A stretch of DNA of 64,000 bases, taken from the NCBI RefSeq assembly GCF_044324785.1, contig NZ_CP172127.1; one strand, written 5' to 3'. A model generated the notes under the pieces. It had not been told where the DNA came from, made no database searches, and worked only from the letters and a program-made list of their open reading frames with translations. How positions within the stretch are numbered: the stretch's first letter is position 1; every line of letters starts with the position of its first letter. Source of the stretch: Escherichia coli. Lineage in GTDB: Bacteria; Pseudomonadota; Gammaproteobacteria; Enterobacterales; Enterobacteriaceae. The position numbers and the translations under genes were made by a program. Below are positions 1-54,176 of the stretch, in pieces.

Positions 1-1574
1 TGGATCCGTGCTGCCAGCGCGTGGATAAGCTGCCCGCGACGTTCTTCATCGCTGATCCGACACTGGATCTGCAAAATGATTTTTTCTTGGGCGGTAACAA
101 AAGCAATCGCATCGCCAGAATGAATTTCCGGTTCCTGTTCCGCAATATATTCAATATCCTGCGGCCAGATATTACGGCCACGAATAATAATCAGATCTTT
201 AATGCGTCCGGTGACATACAGATAACCGTCCAGCAGATAACCGAGGTCGCCGGTGTCTAACCAGCCCGTCGCGGCAATCTCGTCTTGTGAAATCTGGTCG
301 CCAAAGTAACCGCTCATCAGGCTAGGGCCGGAGATGCAAATATGGCCTACCACACGTTCCGCGACAGGTATACCTGCTTCATTGCGGATTTCAATGCCAT
401 GTTCCGGCAACGCTTTACCGCAGTTGACGAAAGTCGATACGGCGCGTGTTTCAGCATCCGGCGCGACGGCTTTGCCCTGATATTCGAGGATGTCGCGATC
501 CACTTCGTTAACCACAACCCCGGAAGCTTCATCAGAGAAGCTGACAGCCAGCGCATTTTCTGCCAGTCCGTAGCACGGCATGAAAGTTTTATCGTCAAAG
601 TTGACCTGACGGAAACATTCAGCGAATTGATGGAGTTGTTCTGCGGAGATGGGTTCTGCACCAATACCAGCGACGCGCCAGCAGGAAAGATCCAGTTCAG
701 CGAGATCTTTTTCATTCACGCGGCGCTGGCACAATTCATAGCCAAACGGCGGCGCAACGGAAACGGTGCCGCGATTTTTACTGATCAATTTAAGCCATTG
801 CAGAGGACGCATGGCAAAATCCTGAGTGCGCAAATAATCTACTGAGAGTTGCGTGGCGACGGGGGTCAGGAGAAAGCCGACCAGTCCCATATCATGGTAG
901 AAAGGCAGCCAGGAGACGCAGCGGTCGCCAGGGCGTAATTTTATGCCATCGTGGCTTATAGCACGTAGATTAGCCATCACTTCGCGATGGGTGATAATGA
1001 CGCCACGGGGAAAACGGGTGCTGCCGGAGGTGTACTGGAGGTAGGCGATATCGTTCGGAACTGGACGCTGGAGCGCAACATCGGCTTCCGGTAATGCCTT
1101 AAACCAGGCGTGGCTTAAAACATGTAATTCGGGGTTGTTGTTATGCGTCGCGGCATTGACCAGTGGCAACCACTCATCACCAGTGATAATGGCTGCGGGC
1201 TGGCAACTTGCCAGTAAACCCTGCAGCTTGCCGCTCCAGGAATCCCGCTGACCGACGCCCATGGGAATCGCCAACGGGACGGCGACTAAGCCGGCATACT
1301 GGCAGGCAAAAAAAGCCTCTACGAACCCGCTACTGGTTTCGGCAATCAGTGCCACGCGATCGCCTTTTTTCAGGTTTAGCGATAACAACCGCTTCGCACC
1401 AGCTTCGGCACGCGCTTTTAACGTCTGATATTCCAGTTGATCTTCAAGTTGGCAACGTCTGTCATAAAAATTCATTCCAGCGCTACTCAGAGCGGCATAG
1501 TCCAAAGCATCAACCAGCGTTGGAAAATCGGCATAGCGCATAGGTAGGGAATGCGTAAAGATTTTATTAGACAT
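1..1574 (-). CDS. Fatty-acyl-AMP ligase / acyl-CoA synthetase-like AMP-binding enzyme, 5' part only (gene runs off the window start)
   Basis: Minus-strand translation from ATG at 1574 (MSNKIFTHSLPMRYADF...) stays open to position 1 and contains the adenylate-forming motif YTSGSTRFPRGV plus GWLDTGDLGY. Absent from the ORF track, presumably because its stop lies outside the window. The + strand ORFs 342..845 and 1208..1543 are antisense artefacts. Confidence 0.6.
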   Translation of the reverse strand, partial: MSNKIFTHSLPMRYADFPTLVDALDYAALSSAGMNFYDRRCQLEDQLEYQTLKARAEAGAKRLLSLNLKKGDRVALIAETSSGFVEAFFACQYAGLVAVPLAIPMGVGQRDSWSGKLQGLLASCQPAAIITGDEWLPLVNAATHNNNPELHVLSHAWFKALPEADVALQRPVPNDIAYLQYTSGSTRFPRGVIITHREVMANLRAISHDGIKLRPGDRCVSWLPFYHDMGLVGFLLTPVATQLSVDYLRTQDFAMRPLQWLKLISKNRGTVSVAPPFGYELCQRRVNEKDLAELDLSCWRVAGIGAEPISAEQLHQFAECFRQVNFDDKTFMPCYGLAENALAVSFSDEASGVVVNEVDRDILEYQGKAVAPDAETRAVSTFVNCGKALPEHGIEIRNEAGIPVAERVVGHICISGPSLMSGYFGDQISQDEIAATGWLDTGDLGYLLDGYLYVTGRIKDLIIIRGRNIWPQDIEYIAEQEPEIHSGDAIAFVTAQEKIILQIQCRISDEERRGQLIHALAARI

Positions 1575-1944
1575 ATACACCACGAAAAAATTGGATATCA
1601 AAAATAAAATGACAATAATGCGGTGGATTATATAGGCATAAAAGATAAATGAGATAGTATTTTCATCAGTGTGAAAATGAACATTGATTTAAATAATGAA
1701 TTTGAGTTTTTTGTTTTTATTGTGAATGATATTTAATTTATGAATATATTAAGAAGGAGCCTTGTCCGGTCGCCTTAAATCGACAAAAGGCATTGTGGCG
1801 CTTCTGTGTAGTCTCTGACCTTATCGTAATCATTAATAAATACTATTTATTCGTCGTTTGTATTCATTGGGTTGATTATTAAGGTGCCGTTCGTTGCTGT
1901 TGCAACCTGTTTGTCACCGTTAATTATTTGTTACCCACAGAACT

Positions 1945-3087
1945 ATGGAATGCGATCTGCTGATGATTAAAATTGAAAAAGTAATTAATAAAAATGACCT
2001 TAAGGCATTTATCGCTTTTCCGTCATCACTTTATCCCGACGATCCAAACTGGATACCCCCTTTATTCATTGAACGCAACGAGCATTTGTCTGCGAAAAAT
2101 CCGGGGACGGACCATATCATCTGGCAGGCGTGGGTGGCAAAAAAAGCGGGGCAGATAGTTGGGCGTATTACCGCGCAAATAGATACCTTGCACCGCGAGC
2201 GTTACGGCAAAGATACCGGTCATTTCGGCATGATTGACGCCATTGATGATCCGCAGGTTTTTGCCGCGTTGTTTGGCGCAGCGGAAGCGTGGTTGAAGTC
2301 ACAAGGTGCAAGTAAGATCAGCGGGCCTTTCAGCCTGAATATCAATCAGGAAAGCGGATTACTGATTGAAGGTTTTGACACTCCGCCCTGTGCGATGATG
2401 CCACACGGCAAACCGTGGTATGCCGCGCATATTGAACAACTGGGTTATCACAAAGGCATTGATTTACTGGCGTGGTGGATGCAGCGAACCGATCTCACTT
2501 TCTCTCCGGCGCTAAAAAAACTGATGGATCAGGTGCGCAAAAAAGTGACCATTCGCTGCATCAATCGCCAGCGGTTTGCCGAAGAGATGCAGATCCTGCG
2601 TGAGATTTTCAATTCTGGCTGGCAGCACAACTGGGGATTTGTGCCGTTTACCGAACATGAATTCGCGACCATGGGCGATCAACTTAAATATCTGGTGCCG
2701 GACGATATGATCTACATCGCTGAGATTGATTCTGCACCCTGCGCGTTTATTGTCGGCTTGCCAAACATCAACGAGGCGATTGCCGATCTGAACGGATCGC
2801 TCTTTCCCTTCGGCTGGGCAAAATTGCTGTGGCGTTTAAAAGTCAGCGGTGTGCGAACTGCGCGAGTACCGCTGATGGGCGTGCGGGACGAGTATCAGTT
2901 CAGCCGCATCGGCCCGGTGATTGCGTTGTTATTGATTGAAGCCTTACGCGATCCGTTTGCCCGCCGGAAGATCGATGCGCTGGAGATGTCATGGATCCTC
3001 GAAACCAATACAGGCATGAATAACATGCTGGAACGCATTGGGGCAGAGCCGTACAAGCGTTACCGATTGTATGAAAAGCAGATTTAA
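1945..3087 (+). CDS. yghO: YghO-like GNAT-type acyltransferase family protein
   Basis: 380-aa ORF recalled as YghO (intact here; position next to glcC matches the K-12 order). Start uncertain: an in-frame ATG at 1963 (MIKIEK) is an alternative and neither has a clear Shine-Dalgarno. Confidence 0.55.
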   Translation: MECDLLMIKIEKVINKNDLKAFIAFPSSLYPDDPNWIPPLFIERNEHLSAKNPGTDHIIWQAWVAKKAGQIVGRITAQIDTLHRERYGKDTGHFGMIDAIDDPQVFAALFGAAEAWLKSQGASKISGPFSLNINQESGLLIEGFDTPPCAMMPHGKPWYAAHIEQLGYHKGIDLLAWWMQRTDLTFSPALKKLMDQVRKKVTIRCINRQRFAEEMQILREIFNSGWQHNWGFVPFTEHEFATMGDQLKYLVPDDMIYIAEIDSAPCAFIVGLPNINEAIADLNGSLFPFGWAKLLWRLKVSGVRTARVPLMGVRDEYQFSRIGPVIALLLIEALRDPFARRKIDALEMSWILETNTGMNNMLERIGAEPYKRYRLYEKQI

Positions 3088-3162
3088 TACCAGATCCTGT
3101 TAAGCGCAGGGGCGATCCCTCGCCCCTCGGGGAAAGGGTTAGGGTGAGGGTGAAAACTCGGC

Positions 3163-3933
3163 TCACATTCCCACCTTGTTCATCTCCAGCGGCACCGCCG
3201 AGCGAATCAAATGGTGGCCTTCCAGCTCGATATCGTGGAGATTCTTTTTCACGGTCCGCACATGATCGCGTGCTGCGCGCTGGGCGACGTGCGGCAGCCG
3301 CTGCAACACCGCGTTGTAGATCCGCGCATGCTGGCGATCGATCTGCTTTTTTTGCTGTGGTCGATGGTAGAGATTATTTACGCTGGCAAACACTGAATTA
3401 AACATCAGATCGGTCAATGATTGCAGCGTAAACACCAACACCTGATTGTGAGAAGCCTGACAAATGGCGAGATGGAAAGCGTGATCCAACTGCGCATGTT
3501 CGATCAGCGAAATCTCTTTGTTGTTCTCACTGGCGGCGAGCATTTTTTCATAACAGCGGGTTATCACAACAAAATCAGCCTGGGTTCCCAGCGTTGCCGC
3601 CAGCCTTGCCGATTCACCCTCCAGCAATGCGCGAACGTCGAGCAGATCGTACAGCGTTCGCGGCTGCGTACTGAACAGATGGATCAGCGGGCTGGTGTCC
3701 TGCACCCGATTAAGCCGTGCGACACGAGAATCGCGACCCTGCGCCGTTTCAATAATCCCGCGCCCGCGCAGCACGGTCAGCCCTTCACGCAGTGCGGAGC
3801 GTGAGAAGCCGAGCTTTTCACACAGTCGACGTTCCGAGGGAAGCGGCTGACCGACCTTCAGTACGCCGTCGATAATTAACCGTTCGATACTCTCTGCAAC
3901 CACTTCGCAAATAGGGCGACGTTCATCTTTCAT
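3163..3933 (-). CDS. glcC: GntR/FadR-family transcriptional activator of the glycolate operon
   Basis: Protein from MKDERRPICEVVAESIERL... matches recalled GlcC. The track ORF extends 23 codons upstream; the ATG at 3933 is taken as the start. Divergent from glcD. Confidence 0.9.
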   Translation of the reverse strand: MKDERRPICEVVAESIERLIIDGVLKVGQPLPSERRLCEKLGFSRSALREGLTVLRGRGIIETAQGRDSRVARLNRVQDTSPLIHLFSTQPRTLYDLLDVRALLEGESARLAATLGTQADFVVITRCYEKMLAASENNKEISLIEHAQLDHAFHLAICQASHNQVLVFTLQSLTDLMFNSVFASVNNLYHRPQQKKQIDRQHARIYNAVLQRLPHVAQRAARDHVRTVKKNLHDIELEGHHLIRSAVPLEMNKVGM

Positions 3934-10571: not shown

Positions 10572-10926
10572 TAGCGTCAAAAAAAGCCCCGGCAAGATTT
10601 ATTGTCGGGGCTATGATAGTAACTGCGGTAGTACATTTATCCCGGAAATAACCGGAGCGATTATCAGGGGTTAACAATATTAAATACCCGTAGCGCATCA
10701 CTAGCGGGATTAAAACAACAATATGGACATCTTAACGATACTCTGCGCCTGCGTGTGCGGAACAGAAACCCTTACCCGATATACTTGTTATGCCAGAGGT
10801 AGCAATTGCGTTAGCGGCGTACTGTTGCTGTAAAGTATAACGCCTATATTTTACAGTTCAGTCCTCTTTTGCTTATTACAACCTTAAGTATATCAAGCAT
10901 ATAAAGATAATAAGAGACTGAACAAT

Positions 10927-53804: not shown

Positions 53805-54021
53805 CAGCTTTTCCTTACAGAGGGTGAATAAAAAAGCCGGTACCCACAAATGTGGATACCGGCAGGTACAAAACAGCATGGTCAGATAAAGTGTTTTTTC
53901 CCGGACATAAATGCTTCCCCTCTCTCATCCGCCAGAGAAGTATCAGTCCGTTGTGTGCAATTCCGTTCTGCATGATGAAGAGATTCAGCTGCCTTTTCGC
54001 AGGCCATTAACCACTATAAAT

Positions 54022-54057
54022 GATCGATTGTGACGATCGATACCTGTTTTATCGATC
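54022..54057. promoter_or_regulatory. Dam-methylation/OxyR phase-variation switch of agn43 (three GATC sites)
   Basis: GATC at 54022-54025, 54035-54038 and 54054-54057 inside tgatcgattgtgacgatcgatacctgttttatcgatcg, about 220-250 bp upstream of the flu start codon. Confidence 0.6.
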
Positions 54058-54176
54058 GTTTTATTCTATTAATAACAAGGCAGCCACGCAAGAGAAACAG
54101 GAGGAGTATGAGGGGTTTGTGTCATGTTTTCAGTTGGTTAACGCAATGTAATCAGGCATTTCCTCTGGCAGAGTGT

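What the first reader, a model, noticed from the sequence alone, without database searches (positions are those of the whole stretch)
1..3087. Divergent fatty-acyl-AMP ligase-like gene and intact yghO acyltransferase
The partial minus-strand gene has the adenylation motif YTSGSTRFPRGV typical of acyl-AMP ligases and is divergent from an apparently intact yghO. The pairing of an acyl-activating enzyme with a GNAT-like acyltransferase suggests an N-acyl amino acid or lipid-modification pathway extending beyond the window start.
Basis: partly seen in the sequence, partly recalled or inferred. Interest (0 to 1): 0.35.

Follow-up and report, generated by a model that had tools for sequence, protein, structure and literature searches.

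The report
E. coli sphingolipid (ceramide) gene cluster edge
The two genes are the end of a published gene cluster that most E. coli strains (not K-12) carry for making ceramide-type sphingolipids; whether E. coli makes the lipid in nature has not been shown.

Summary
Window 3-1574 (-) encodes the first 524 of 574 residues of a fatty acyl-AMP ligase carrying YTSGSTRFPRGV. Window 1945-3087 (+) is an intact yghO. A 370-bp, 32% G+C spacer separates them.

The ligase is about 98% identical to the crystallised EcFAAL (PDB 3PBK). It is also the protein the sphingolipid literature calls AasR, which loads a fatty acid onto a dedicated acyl carrier protein rather than CoA.

Upstream of the window, in the 100%-identical strain B771, the operon continues with a reductase (epi/CerR-like), the carrier protein AcpR and serine palmitoyltransferase. 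LptF/LptG paralogues and yghQRST follow.

YghO has no Pfam or NCBIfam match. It folds as a tandem GNAT (pLDDT 97) and is 45% identical to a Caulobacter protein at the position of the bacterial ceramide synthase gene. 67 of 80 homologue loci carry sphingolipid genes within 10 kb.

Padilla-Gomez et al. (2022) already list 'yghO ECD_02850' as the N-acyltransferase of this cluster in BL21(DE3). The pathway is therefore ceramide synthesis, not N-acyl amino acid synthesis.

The finding is already known. Still untested: YghO activity and native lipid production in E. coli.

The parts
1..1574 (-). aasR (EcFAAL), a fatty acyl-AMP ligase / dedicated acyl-ACP synthetase. These are the N-terminal 524 of 574 codons (codons in 3-1574); the gene is cut by the window start.
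   Evidence: Translation. Pfam AMP-binding E 1.7e-58. NCBIfam FAAL NF006624, 871 bits. PDB 3PBK matched full-length at about 98% identity. 98% identical to BL21(DE3) ECD_02851/AasREc.
999..1034 (-). Adenylation core motif YTSGSTRFPRGV (residues 181-192)
   Evidence: Located by script. Lies inside the Pfam AMP-binding match, residues 45-424.
1575..1944 (.). 370-bp AT-rich (31.6% G+C) divergent intergenic region, presumed to hold the promoters of aasR-epi-acpR-spt and of yghO
   Evidence: Composition. Only one weak sigma-70-like match, no more than chance. No Rfam match. The aasR-proximal block is conserved to Pseudocitrobacter. The regulatory role is inferred.
1945..3087 (+). yghO, a tandem-GNAT N-acyltransferase and homologue of the bacterial ceramide synthase (bCerS/Aca). 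Annotated as 380 aa; the likely true start is ATG 1963 (374 aa).
   Evidence: ORF. AlphaFold pLDDT 97. Foldseek to tandem GNATs, E about 1e-15. 45% identical (E 3e-112) to Caulobacter sp. K31 B0T2I5, which follows two LptF/LptG-family genes. Neighbourhood conservation. Named as aca = 'yghO ECD_02850' in PMC9386255.

Best explanation
The two genes are the glcC-proximal end of the E. coli sphingolipid (dihydroceramide) biosynthesis and export cluster. K-12 has lost this cluster. The proposed steps are as follows.

(1) AasR/EcFAAL adenylates a free fatty acid. C12 and C14 adenylates are seen in its crystal. It transfers the acyl group to the phosphopantetheine arm of the dedicated carrier protein AcpR, not to CoA.

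(2) Serine palmitoyltransferase condenses acyl-AcpR with L-serine to give 3-oxo-sphinganine.

(3) YghO, a cytoplasmic tandem-GNAT enzyme, N-acylates the amino group of that base, probably from acyl-CoA.

(4) The Epi/CerR-like reductase reduces the 3-keto group to give dihydroceramide.

(5) The LptF/LptG paralogues, with the housekeeping LptB, extract the lipid from the inner membrane towards the outer membrane.

Steps 1 and 2 have been shown with the E. coli proteins when over-expressed. Steps 3 to 5 are inferred from homology and gene order relative to Caulobacter. The divergent arrangement around an AT-rich spacer suggests co-regulation and silence under laboratory growth; this is inference.
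For: Context: the operon aasR-epi-acpR-spt, then lptG/lptF paralogues, a ytfJ-family gene, a hypothetical gene and yghQRST. The same layout is present in BL21(DE3).

Family matches: Spt hits the serine palmitoyltransferase equivalog above cutoff, and the ligase hits FAAL above cutoff. The ACP has a PP-binding domain and the reductase an Epimerase domain.

Ligase: it matches PDB 3PBK. All CoA-rejection and alternative-pocket residues named by Patil et al. are present, as T80, P104, W222, M229, T250-R256 and F277.

Literature: EcFAAL loads C12 onto its holo-ACP. AasREc acylates AcpREc, and SPTEc prefers acyl-AcpR. Five dihydroceramide genes including 'yghO ECD_02850' are clustered in BL21. LptF2/G2 transport sphingolipid in Caulobacter, and the E. 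coli UTI89 operon is drawn alongside.

YghO: the fold is tandem GNAT. It is 45% identical to the Caulobacter-genus protein that sits after two LptF/LptG-family genes. One search places C. crescentus bcerS (ccna_01212) beside CCNA_01213 (LptG2) and CCNA_01214 (LptF2).

Neighbourhoods: 67 of 80 YghO-homologue loci have Spt, AcpR, Epi, AasR or LptF2/G2 within 10 kb. Among loci of at least 20 kb the figure is 49 of 52. 24 loci keep the divergent AasR/YghO layout, while the control genes GlcC and PitB appear in 1 and 0 loci.

Selection: dN/dS is 0.03-0.11 for all cluster genes.
Against: No enzymatic or genetic test of E. coli YghO or Epi was found. No paper reporting a sphingolipid from wild-type E. 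coli was found. BL21(DE3) extracts with an empty vector gave no 3-oxo-sphinganine although the strain carries the cluster. About a quarter of complete E. coli genomes lack the intact segment. I compared YghO with a Caulobacter sp. K31 protein, not with the experimentally studied C. crescentus CCNA_01212, whose sequence I could not obtain. The order of steps 3 and 4 is disputed between two laboratories. YghO's acyl donor is not established for the E. coli protein.
Confidence: 0.85

Rival explanations
1. N-acyl amino acid pathway. The ligase-charged carrier protein feeds YghO, which acylates a free amino acid to make a signalling or surfactant lipid.
For: The pairing of an acyl-activating enzyme with a GNAT-fold N-acyltransferase is real and conserved in 24 of 80 loci. 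YghO's acceptor has not been tested for the E. coli enzyme.
Against: The operon carries serine palmitoyltransferase and a reductase, which such a pathway does not need. YghO gives no match to any Pfam family, including N-acyl amino acid synthase-type acetyltransferase models, at E <= 0.01. YghO homologues track Spt or LptF2/G2 across phyla. The published assignment is ceramide synthesis.
Confidence: 0.04
2. The cluster is intact but silent in E. coli. The genes encode working enzymes, yet the lipid is never made in meaningful amounts, so the locus has no physiological role in this species.
For: Native BL21(DE3) extracts show no SPT product. K-12 lost the cluster through an IS5-linked deletion and remains a robust laboratory strain. 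IS1 truncates aasR in GPEC1201. The AT-rich control region has no convincing sigma-70 promoter. No report of an E. coli sphingolipid was found.
Against: dN/dS of 0.03-0.11 in every gene, similar to glcC at 0.02, indicates continuing purifying selection. The full segment is present at >=95% identity in 4086 of 5426 complete genomes. The cluster is syntenic in Pseudocitrobacter, Serratia, Erwinia and Rosenbergiella.
Confidence: 0.12
3. Same pathway, but in the eukaryote-like order. Epi reduces 3-oxo-sphinganine first, and YghO then acylates sphinganine.
For: Proposed by Olea-Ozuna et al. as summarised in PMC9386255. Nothing in the sequences fixes the order.
Against: In Caulobacter, deleting cerR accumulates oxidised ceramide. 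[quoted passage not shown] The E. coli Epi begins directly with a Rossmann GxxGxxG motif (MNQTVAVTGATGFIGK) and has no obvious signal peptide, so the localisation argument may not carry over.
Confidence: 0.25
4. YghO is a protein lysine acetyltransferase or a DNA-binding regulator, as older annotations and GNAT screens assumed.
For: Some database names call homologues 'DNA-binding protein' or 'N-acetyltransferase'. K-12 yghO was included as a candidate in a lysine acetyltransferase screen.
Against: In that paper yghO appears only in the strain and plasmid lists. The predicted fold is a tandem GNAT with no DNA-binding domain. The genomic linkage is to sphingolipid genes.
Confidence: 0.02

Closest known systems
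Caulobacter crescentus ceramide synthesis genes: spt CC_1162, acpR CC_1163, epi/cerR CC_1164, aasR CC_1165, aca/bcerS CC_1154 (CCNA_01212), plus lptF2/lptG2
   Same: The same five enzyme types are present, along with LptF/LptG paralogues in one locus. YghO is 45% identical to the Caulobacter-genus protein that follows two LptF/LptG-family genes; C. crescentus bcerS (ccna_01212) sits beside lptG2/lptF2. E. coli Spt and AcpR can work with Caulobacter AasR in mixed-component assays; E. coli AasR does not acylate Caulobacter AcpR.
   Different: The gene order differs: in E. coli yghO is divergent from aasR rather than next to lptG2. E. coli has no LptC2 (the preprint says LptC2 appears restricted to Caulobacter species), and no CpgABC-like or Sgt-like head-group gene names appear in the annotated locus. 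Instead E. coli has yghQ (polysaccharide-flippase family), a YtfJ-family protein, a hypothetical protein and three P-loop kinase-like genes, yghRST. Native lipid production is shown in Caulobacter but not in E. coli.
EcFAAL, PDB 3PBK (E. coli fatty acyl-adenylate ligase)
   Same: Essentially the same protein: a full-length match of 1283 bits at about 98% identity. All named CoA-rejection residues are present.
   Different: There are a few substitutions and one extra Asn near residue 145. The FAAL papers read here do not connect the enzyme to sphingolipid synthesis.
Tandem-GNAT acyltransferases with solved structures (2WPW clavulanate-pathway tandem GNAT, 5KF1 glucosamine N-acetyltransferase, 7Q3A MAB_4324, MshD 1OZP)
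   Same: A two-GNAT-domain fold, with Foldseek E 8e-16 to 4e-12 and TM 0.56-0.64.
   Different: Only 11-13% sequence identity. YghO is longer (374 aa against about 290-340). It shows no sequence-level PDB match and presumably uses a long-chain acyl donor and a lipid acceptor.
Eukaryotic ceramide synthase (CerS/Lag1 family)
   Same: The same proposed reaction type: N-acylation of a long-chain base.
   Different: [quoted passage not shown] YghO is predicted to be a tandem-GNAT protein. That the two are convergent rather than homologous is suggested by the title of Stankeviciute et al. 2022, cited; I could not read that paper.

Membership tests
Fatty acyl-AMP ligase (FAAL) | ANL-superfamily adenylation domain with the core motif (here YTSGSTRFPRGV) | tested here: met
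   Pfam AMP-binding E 1.7e-58. Motif at residues 181-192.
Fatty acyl-AMP ligase (FAAL) | Scores above the curated FAAL model cutoff rather than an acyl-CoA ligase model cutoff | tested here: met
   NF006624: 871 bits against a cutoff of 600. All acyl-CoA ligase models score below their cutoffs, for example FadD NF006523 at 99.8 bits against 884.
Fatty acyl-AMP ligase (FAAL) | FAAL-specific helix and bulky residues that block the canonical CoA pocket, plus the alternative-pocket gate residues | tested here: met
   T80, P104, W222, M229, T250-R256 (TQDFAMR) and F277 correspond to EcFAAL T83, P107, W224, M231, T252-R258 and F279.
Fatty acyl-AMP ligase (FAAL) | Transfers acyl to a holo-ACP and rejects CoA | not testable with these tools
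   Reported for the ~98%-identical EcFAAL and for AasREc. A dedicated ACP gene lies in the same operon.
Bacterial ceramide synthase (bCerS / Aca, CC_1154 family) | Full-length sequence homology to the Caulobacter enzyme | tested here: met
   45% identity over 369 aa (E 3e-112) to Caulobacter sp. K31 B0T2I5. That protein follows two LptF_LptG-family genes; one search places ccna_01212 beside CCNA_01213/01214. The literature lists 'yghO ECD_02850' as the CC_1154 homologue. Caveat: the C. crescentus sequence itself was not available to me.
Bacterial ceramide synthase (bCerS / Aca, CC_1154 family) | Genomic association with spt, cerR or other sphingolipid locus genes | tested here: met
   67 of 80 loci, and 49 of 52 loci of at least 20 kb, carry Spt, AcpR, Epi, AasR or LptF2/G2 within 10 kb.
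Bacterial ceramide synthase (bCerS / Aca, CC_1154 family) | N-acylation of 3-oxo-sphinganine or sphinganine | not testable with these tools
   No assay of E. coli YghO was found in the literature searched.
GNAT superfamily | Match to a GNAT sequence profile (Pfam PF00583 and relatives) | tested here: not met
   No Pfam or NCBIfam family at E <= 0.01 for E. coli YghO. A minority of homologues carry a precomputed PF00583 hit.
GNAT superfamily | GNAT fold | tested here: met
   AlphaFold model with pLDDT 97 and pTM 0.93. The best PDB matches are tandem GNATs, E 8e-16, probability 1.00, TM 0.57-0.64.
Rhodobacterial five-gene dihydroceramide cluster (aasR, acpR, spt, epi, aca) | All five genes present and intact at one locus | tested here: met
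   The B771 locus, 100% identical over the finding, and the BL21(DE3) locus both carry all five. Family assignments. Only aasR (partial) and yghO lie inside the window.
   No Pfam match of any kind for YghO. Serine palmitoyltransferase is in the operon.

The most novel reading that the evidence does not exclude
Most wild E. coli, unlike K-12, natively make and export to the outer membrane a ceramide-type sphingolipid that has not yet been observed. Its long-chain base may be short (C14-C16), because the ligase crystallised with C12 and C14 adenylates. It may carry Enterobacterales-specific head-group chemistry supplied by yghQ, the YtfJ-family gene and the yghRST kinase-like genes. YghO would be the ceramide synthase. 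The conserved divergent aasR/yghO pairing leaves open that YghO draws its acyl chain from AasR-charged AcpR rather than from acyl-CoA.
Probability: 0.35. Interest if true: 0.6.

Novelty: already known. Interest (0 to 1): 0.25.

Why it matters
Sphingolipids from gut bacteria are thought to influence host lipid metabolism and immunity (abstracts seen), and that work has concentrated on Bacteroides-type commensals. The segment studied here is present in 4086 of 5426 complete E. coli genomes and is absent from K-12. If it is expressed in the host, E. coli would be an overlooked source of such lipids and would have an extra outer-membrane component exported through LptF/LptG paralogues. None of this is new as a gene-level observation. 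What remains open is experimental: YghO activity, the native product and the inducing condition. A practical point for annotators is that EcFAAL (3PBK) and AasR are the same protein. YghO-family proteins are often mislabelled 'dATP pyrophosphohydrolase' or 'DNA-binding protein'.

Tried and rejected
- Pfam, NCBIfam and PDB sequence searches of YghO gave nothing, so I turned to structure prediction.
- The first 81-sequence alignment was too diverse for the genome scan. A 14-sequence subset worked.
- The top 80 genome loci contained no Caulobacter. A second homologue search seeded from a Robiginitomaculum sequence produced a Caulobacter sp. K31 protein.
- Stankeviciute et al. 2022 (PMC8891067) is not held, so bCerS biochemistry is cited second-hand.
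- The AFDB Foldseek library was unavailable.
- I asked whether yghRST could be the ceramide kinase. CpgB is described as having an LCB5/DAG-kinase domain, whereas YghR/S/T give only weak thymidylate-kinase/P-loop matches, so I rejected the idea.
- The promoter/terminator scan and the Rfam scan of the intergenic region found nothing above chance. Repeat search there found only short, probably chance, repeats.
- Literature searches for a native E. coli sphingolipid returned nothing.
- The protein-acetyltransferase and DNA-binding readings of YghO were rejected.
Full report
**Observation.** The window is E. coli chromosome. Bases 1-3087 are 100% identical to strain B771 and 95-99% identical to nearly all the other matching genomes. 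On the minus strand an ORF starts at ATG 1574 and runs off the window start. Its 524 codons contain YTSGSTRFPRGV at residues 181-192, nt 999-1034. The complete protein in B771 is 574 aa. It matches Pfam AMP-binding (E 1.7e-58) and the NCBIfam 'fatty acyl-AMP ligase' model at 871 bits against a cutoff of 600. Every acyl-CoA ligase model falls below its cutoff. On the plus strand, 1945-3087 is an uninterrupted 380-codon yghO. RefSeq gives it the same protein accession in B771 and BL21(DE3). The 370-bp spacer is 31.6% G+C, against 49.8% for the window.

**What lies beyond the window.** The B771 record shows that the ligase is the first gene of an operon. It continues with an NAD-dependent epimerase/dehydratase-family reductase (4-nt overlap), an 82-aa acyl carrier protein, and spt (1-nt overlap with the ACP gene). 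On the other strand come two LptF/LptG-family permeases, a YtfJ-family protein, a hypothetical protein, yghQ, yghR and yghS, with yghT on the opposite strand. BL21(DE3) has the same layout. Spt reaches the serine palmitoyltransferase equivalog model (599 bits, cutoff 500). It scores far below the cutoffs of the BioF, Kbl and CqsA-type models.

**The ligase.** A PDB sequence search shows it is the crystallised E. coli fatty acyl-adenylate ligase 3PBK, matched full-length at 1283 bits and about 98% identity.
- Patil et al. (eLife 2021) report that EcFAAL loads C12 onto its holo-ACP. They name the residues that close the CoA pocket and gate an alternative pocket.
- All of those residues are present here once the numbering offset is allowed for.
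- A 2025 review lists C12:0 and C14:0 adenylates in the crystal.
- The protein is also 98% identical to BL21(DE3) ECD_02851, which Padilla-Gomez et al. (Front Microbiol 2022) call AasREc.
- In that study AasREc acylates the E. coli carrier protein AcpREc, and the E. coli Spt prefers acyl-AcpR over acyl-CoA or acyl-AcpP.
- The FAAL papers I read do not mention sphingolipids. No held paper contains all four terms 'Escherichia coli', 'sphingolipid', 'fatty acyl-AMP ligase' and 'serine palmitoyltransferase'.

**YghO.** Sequence profiles are silent: there is no Pfam, NCBIfam or PDB sequence match.
- The family is nevertheless large, with 6502 representatives at 50% clustering and E <= 0.001.
- An AlphaFold model built on 81 diverse members is very confident, with pLDDT 97 and pTM 0.93.
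- Its best PDB matches are tandem-GNAT enzymes, with E 8e-16 to 4e-12, TM 0.56-0.64 and 11-13% identity. This confirms 'GNAT-like' structurally.
- A genome scan with a 14-member alignment returned 80 loci, from Enterobacterales, Pseudomonas, Nitrosomonas, alphaproteobacteria and various metagenome-assembled genomes.
- tblastn with the E. coli cluster proteins found Spt, AcpR, Epi or AasR in 42 loci and LptF2/G2 in 48. At least one was present in 67 of 80 loci, and in 49 of 52 loci of at least 20 kb.
- 24 loci keep the divergent AasR(-)/YghO(+) layout, and 23 have YghO followed by LptF2. The control genes GlcC and PitB appear in 1 and 0 loci.
- A second homologue search yielded a Caulobacter sp. 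K31 protein (B0T2I5, named 'dATP pyrophosphohydrolase'). YghO is 45% identical to it over 369 residues, E 3e-112.
- On its contigs that protein follows two LptF_LptG-family genes. The Uchendu et al. 2026 preprint places C. crescentus bcerS (ccna_01212) beside CCNA_01213 (LptG2) and CCNA_01214 (LptF2).
- Padilla-Gomez et al. explicitly list 'aca: CC_1154, yghO ECD_02850' and state that the five dihydroceramide genes are clustered in C. crescentus and E. coli BL21.
- The 2026 preprint draws the E. coli UTI89 sphingolipid operon beside those of Caulobacter and Sphingomonas.

**Mechanism.** The best-supported reading is as follows.
1. AasR activates a fatty acid and loads AcpR.
2. Spt condenses acyl-AcpR with serine to give 3-oxo-sphinganine.
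3. YghO N-acylates that base.
4. The reductase makes dihydroceramide.
5. LptF2/G2, with LptB, move the lipid outward.

The first two steps have been shown with over-expressed E. coli proteins. The rest is inferred by homology. The order of acylation and reduction is disputed. Caulobacter data favour acylation first. That argument rests on CerR being periplasmic, whereas the E. coli reductase starts directly with its Rossmann motif.

**Is the cluster alive in E. coli?**
- dN/dS against a divergent Escherichia lineage is 0.03-0.11 for all seven cluster genes tested, compared with 0.02 for glcC.
- The full 3087-bp segment occurs in 4086 of 5426 complete genomes.
- K-12-type strains have an IS5 between a truncated yghQ and yghO, with everything in between deleted.
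- One avian isolate has IS1 truncating aasR, with unrelated IS elements and the ireA gene beyond it in place of yghO and glcC.
- BL21(DE3) extracts with an empty vector made no 3-oxo-sphinganine, and I found no report of a native E. coli sphingolipid.
- The AT-rich spacer has no convincing promoter match and no Rfam match.
- The locus therefore looks maintained by selection but silent in standard culture. The silencing mechanism is conjecture.

**Gene-start details.**
- Most YghO homologues are 374 aa and align from query residue 7-10. Pseudocitrobacter DNA does not align with the first 18 nt of the annotated E. coli ORF. ATG 1963 is therefore the likelier start.
- For aasR, ATG 1574 and its upstream GGTGTAT are conserved to Pseudocitrobacter, and the 3PBK construct begins there. 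The BL21 RefSeq annotation starts 12 codons later.

**Verdict.** The cluster, including yghO's role, is already in the literature, so novelty is 'already known' and interest is low to moderate. The remaining open questions are experimental.

Noticed in passing
window 3094-3168: A GC-rich element of about 75 bp sits between the yghO stop and the 3' end of glcC. It is absent from K-12-type J53 and from BL21(DE3). It is present full-length at this site in only 187 of 5426 E. coli genomes, but related copies (80-90% identity) are dispersed at a median of 7 places per genome. It overlaps the annotated glcC 3' end, so GlcC is 256 aa here against 254 aa in K-12 and BL21. From memory it resembles the small boxC-type intergenic repeats; I did not test that.
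   Followed up: partly
window 1945-1965: The annotated yghO start (ATG 1945) is probably 18 nt too far upstream. Most homologues are 374 aa and align from residue 7-10, and Pseudocitrobacter DNA aligns only from the second ATG (1963).
   Followed up: partly
window 1538-1574: RefSeq annotations disagree on the ligase start: 574 aa in B771 against 562 aa in BL21(DE3). ATG 1574 and its upstream bases are conserved across genera, and the 3PBK crystal construct starts there.
   Followed up: partly
L001 6115-10703 (upstream of the window): yghR, yghS and yghT (weak thymidylate-kinase/P-loop matches), yghQ (polysaccharide-flippase family), a 274-aa protein with no Pfam family and a YtfJ-family protein travel with the sphingolipid genes in Enterobacterales. 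yghR/S/T and yghQ homologues also appear in one betaproteobacterial MAG (L032). They are not the CpgB-type ceramide kinase, and their role is unknown.
   Followed up: partly
L084 4738-8103 (K-12-type J53) and L085 8850-9855 (GPEC1201): There are independent IS-mediated losses. IS5 lies between a truncated yghQ and yghO in K-12-type strains, removing aasR through lptF2 and neighbours. IS1 truncates aasR in an avian isolate, with an IS-rich ireA island beyond it.
   Followed up: partly
window 10627-10848 (-), 30543-30581 (+), 53823-54059 (-): Rfam gathering-score matches elsewhere in the window: C0719 sRNA (294 bits), a JUMPstart element (58.5 bits) and IS102 RNA (64.8 bits).
   Followed up: no
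protein databases: YghO-family proteins carry misleading names such as 'dATP pyrophosphohydrolase' and 'DNA-binding protein'. One metagenome entry is named 'Hypothetical protein associated with Serine palmitoyltransferase'. One representative (P0121, 784 aa) contains two matched stretches, suggesting a duplicated or fused form.
   Followed up: no
L017-L023, L029-L031, L064 (Nitrosomonas and relatives): In these nitrifier and betaproteobacterial loci the YghO homologue sits immediately upstream of the LptF2/LptG2 paralogues, and no convincing spt operon gene is within 10 kb (L029 has only a 24%-identity Spt-like match). This links the acyltransferase to the transporter rather than to the base-forming enzymes.
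   Followed up: partly
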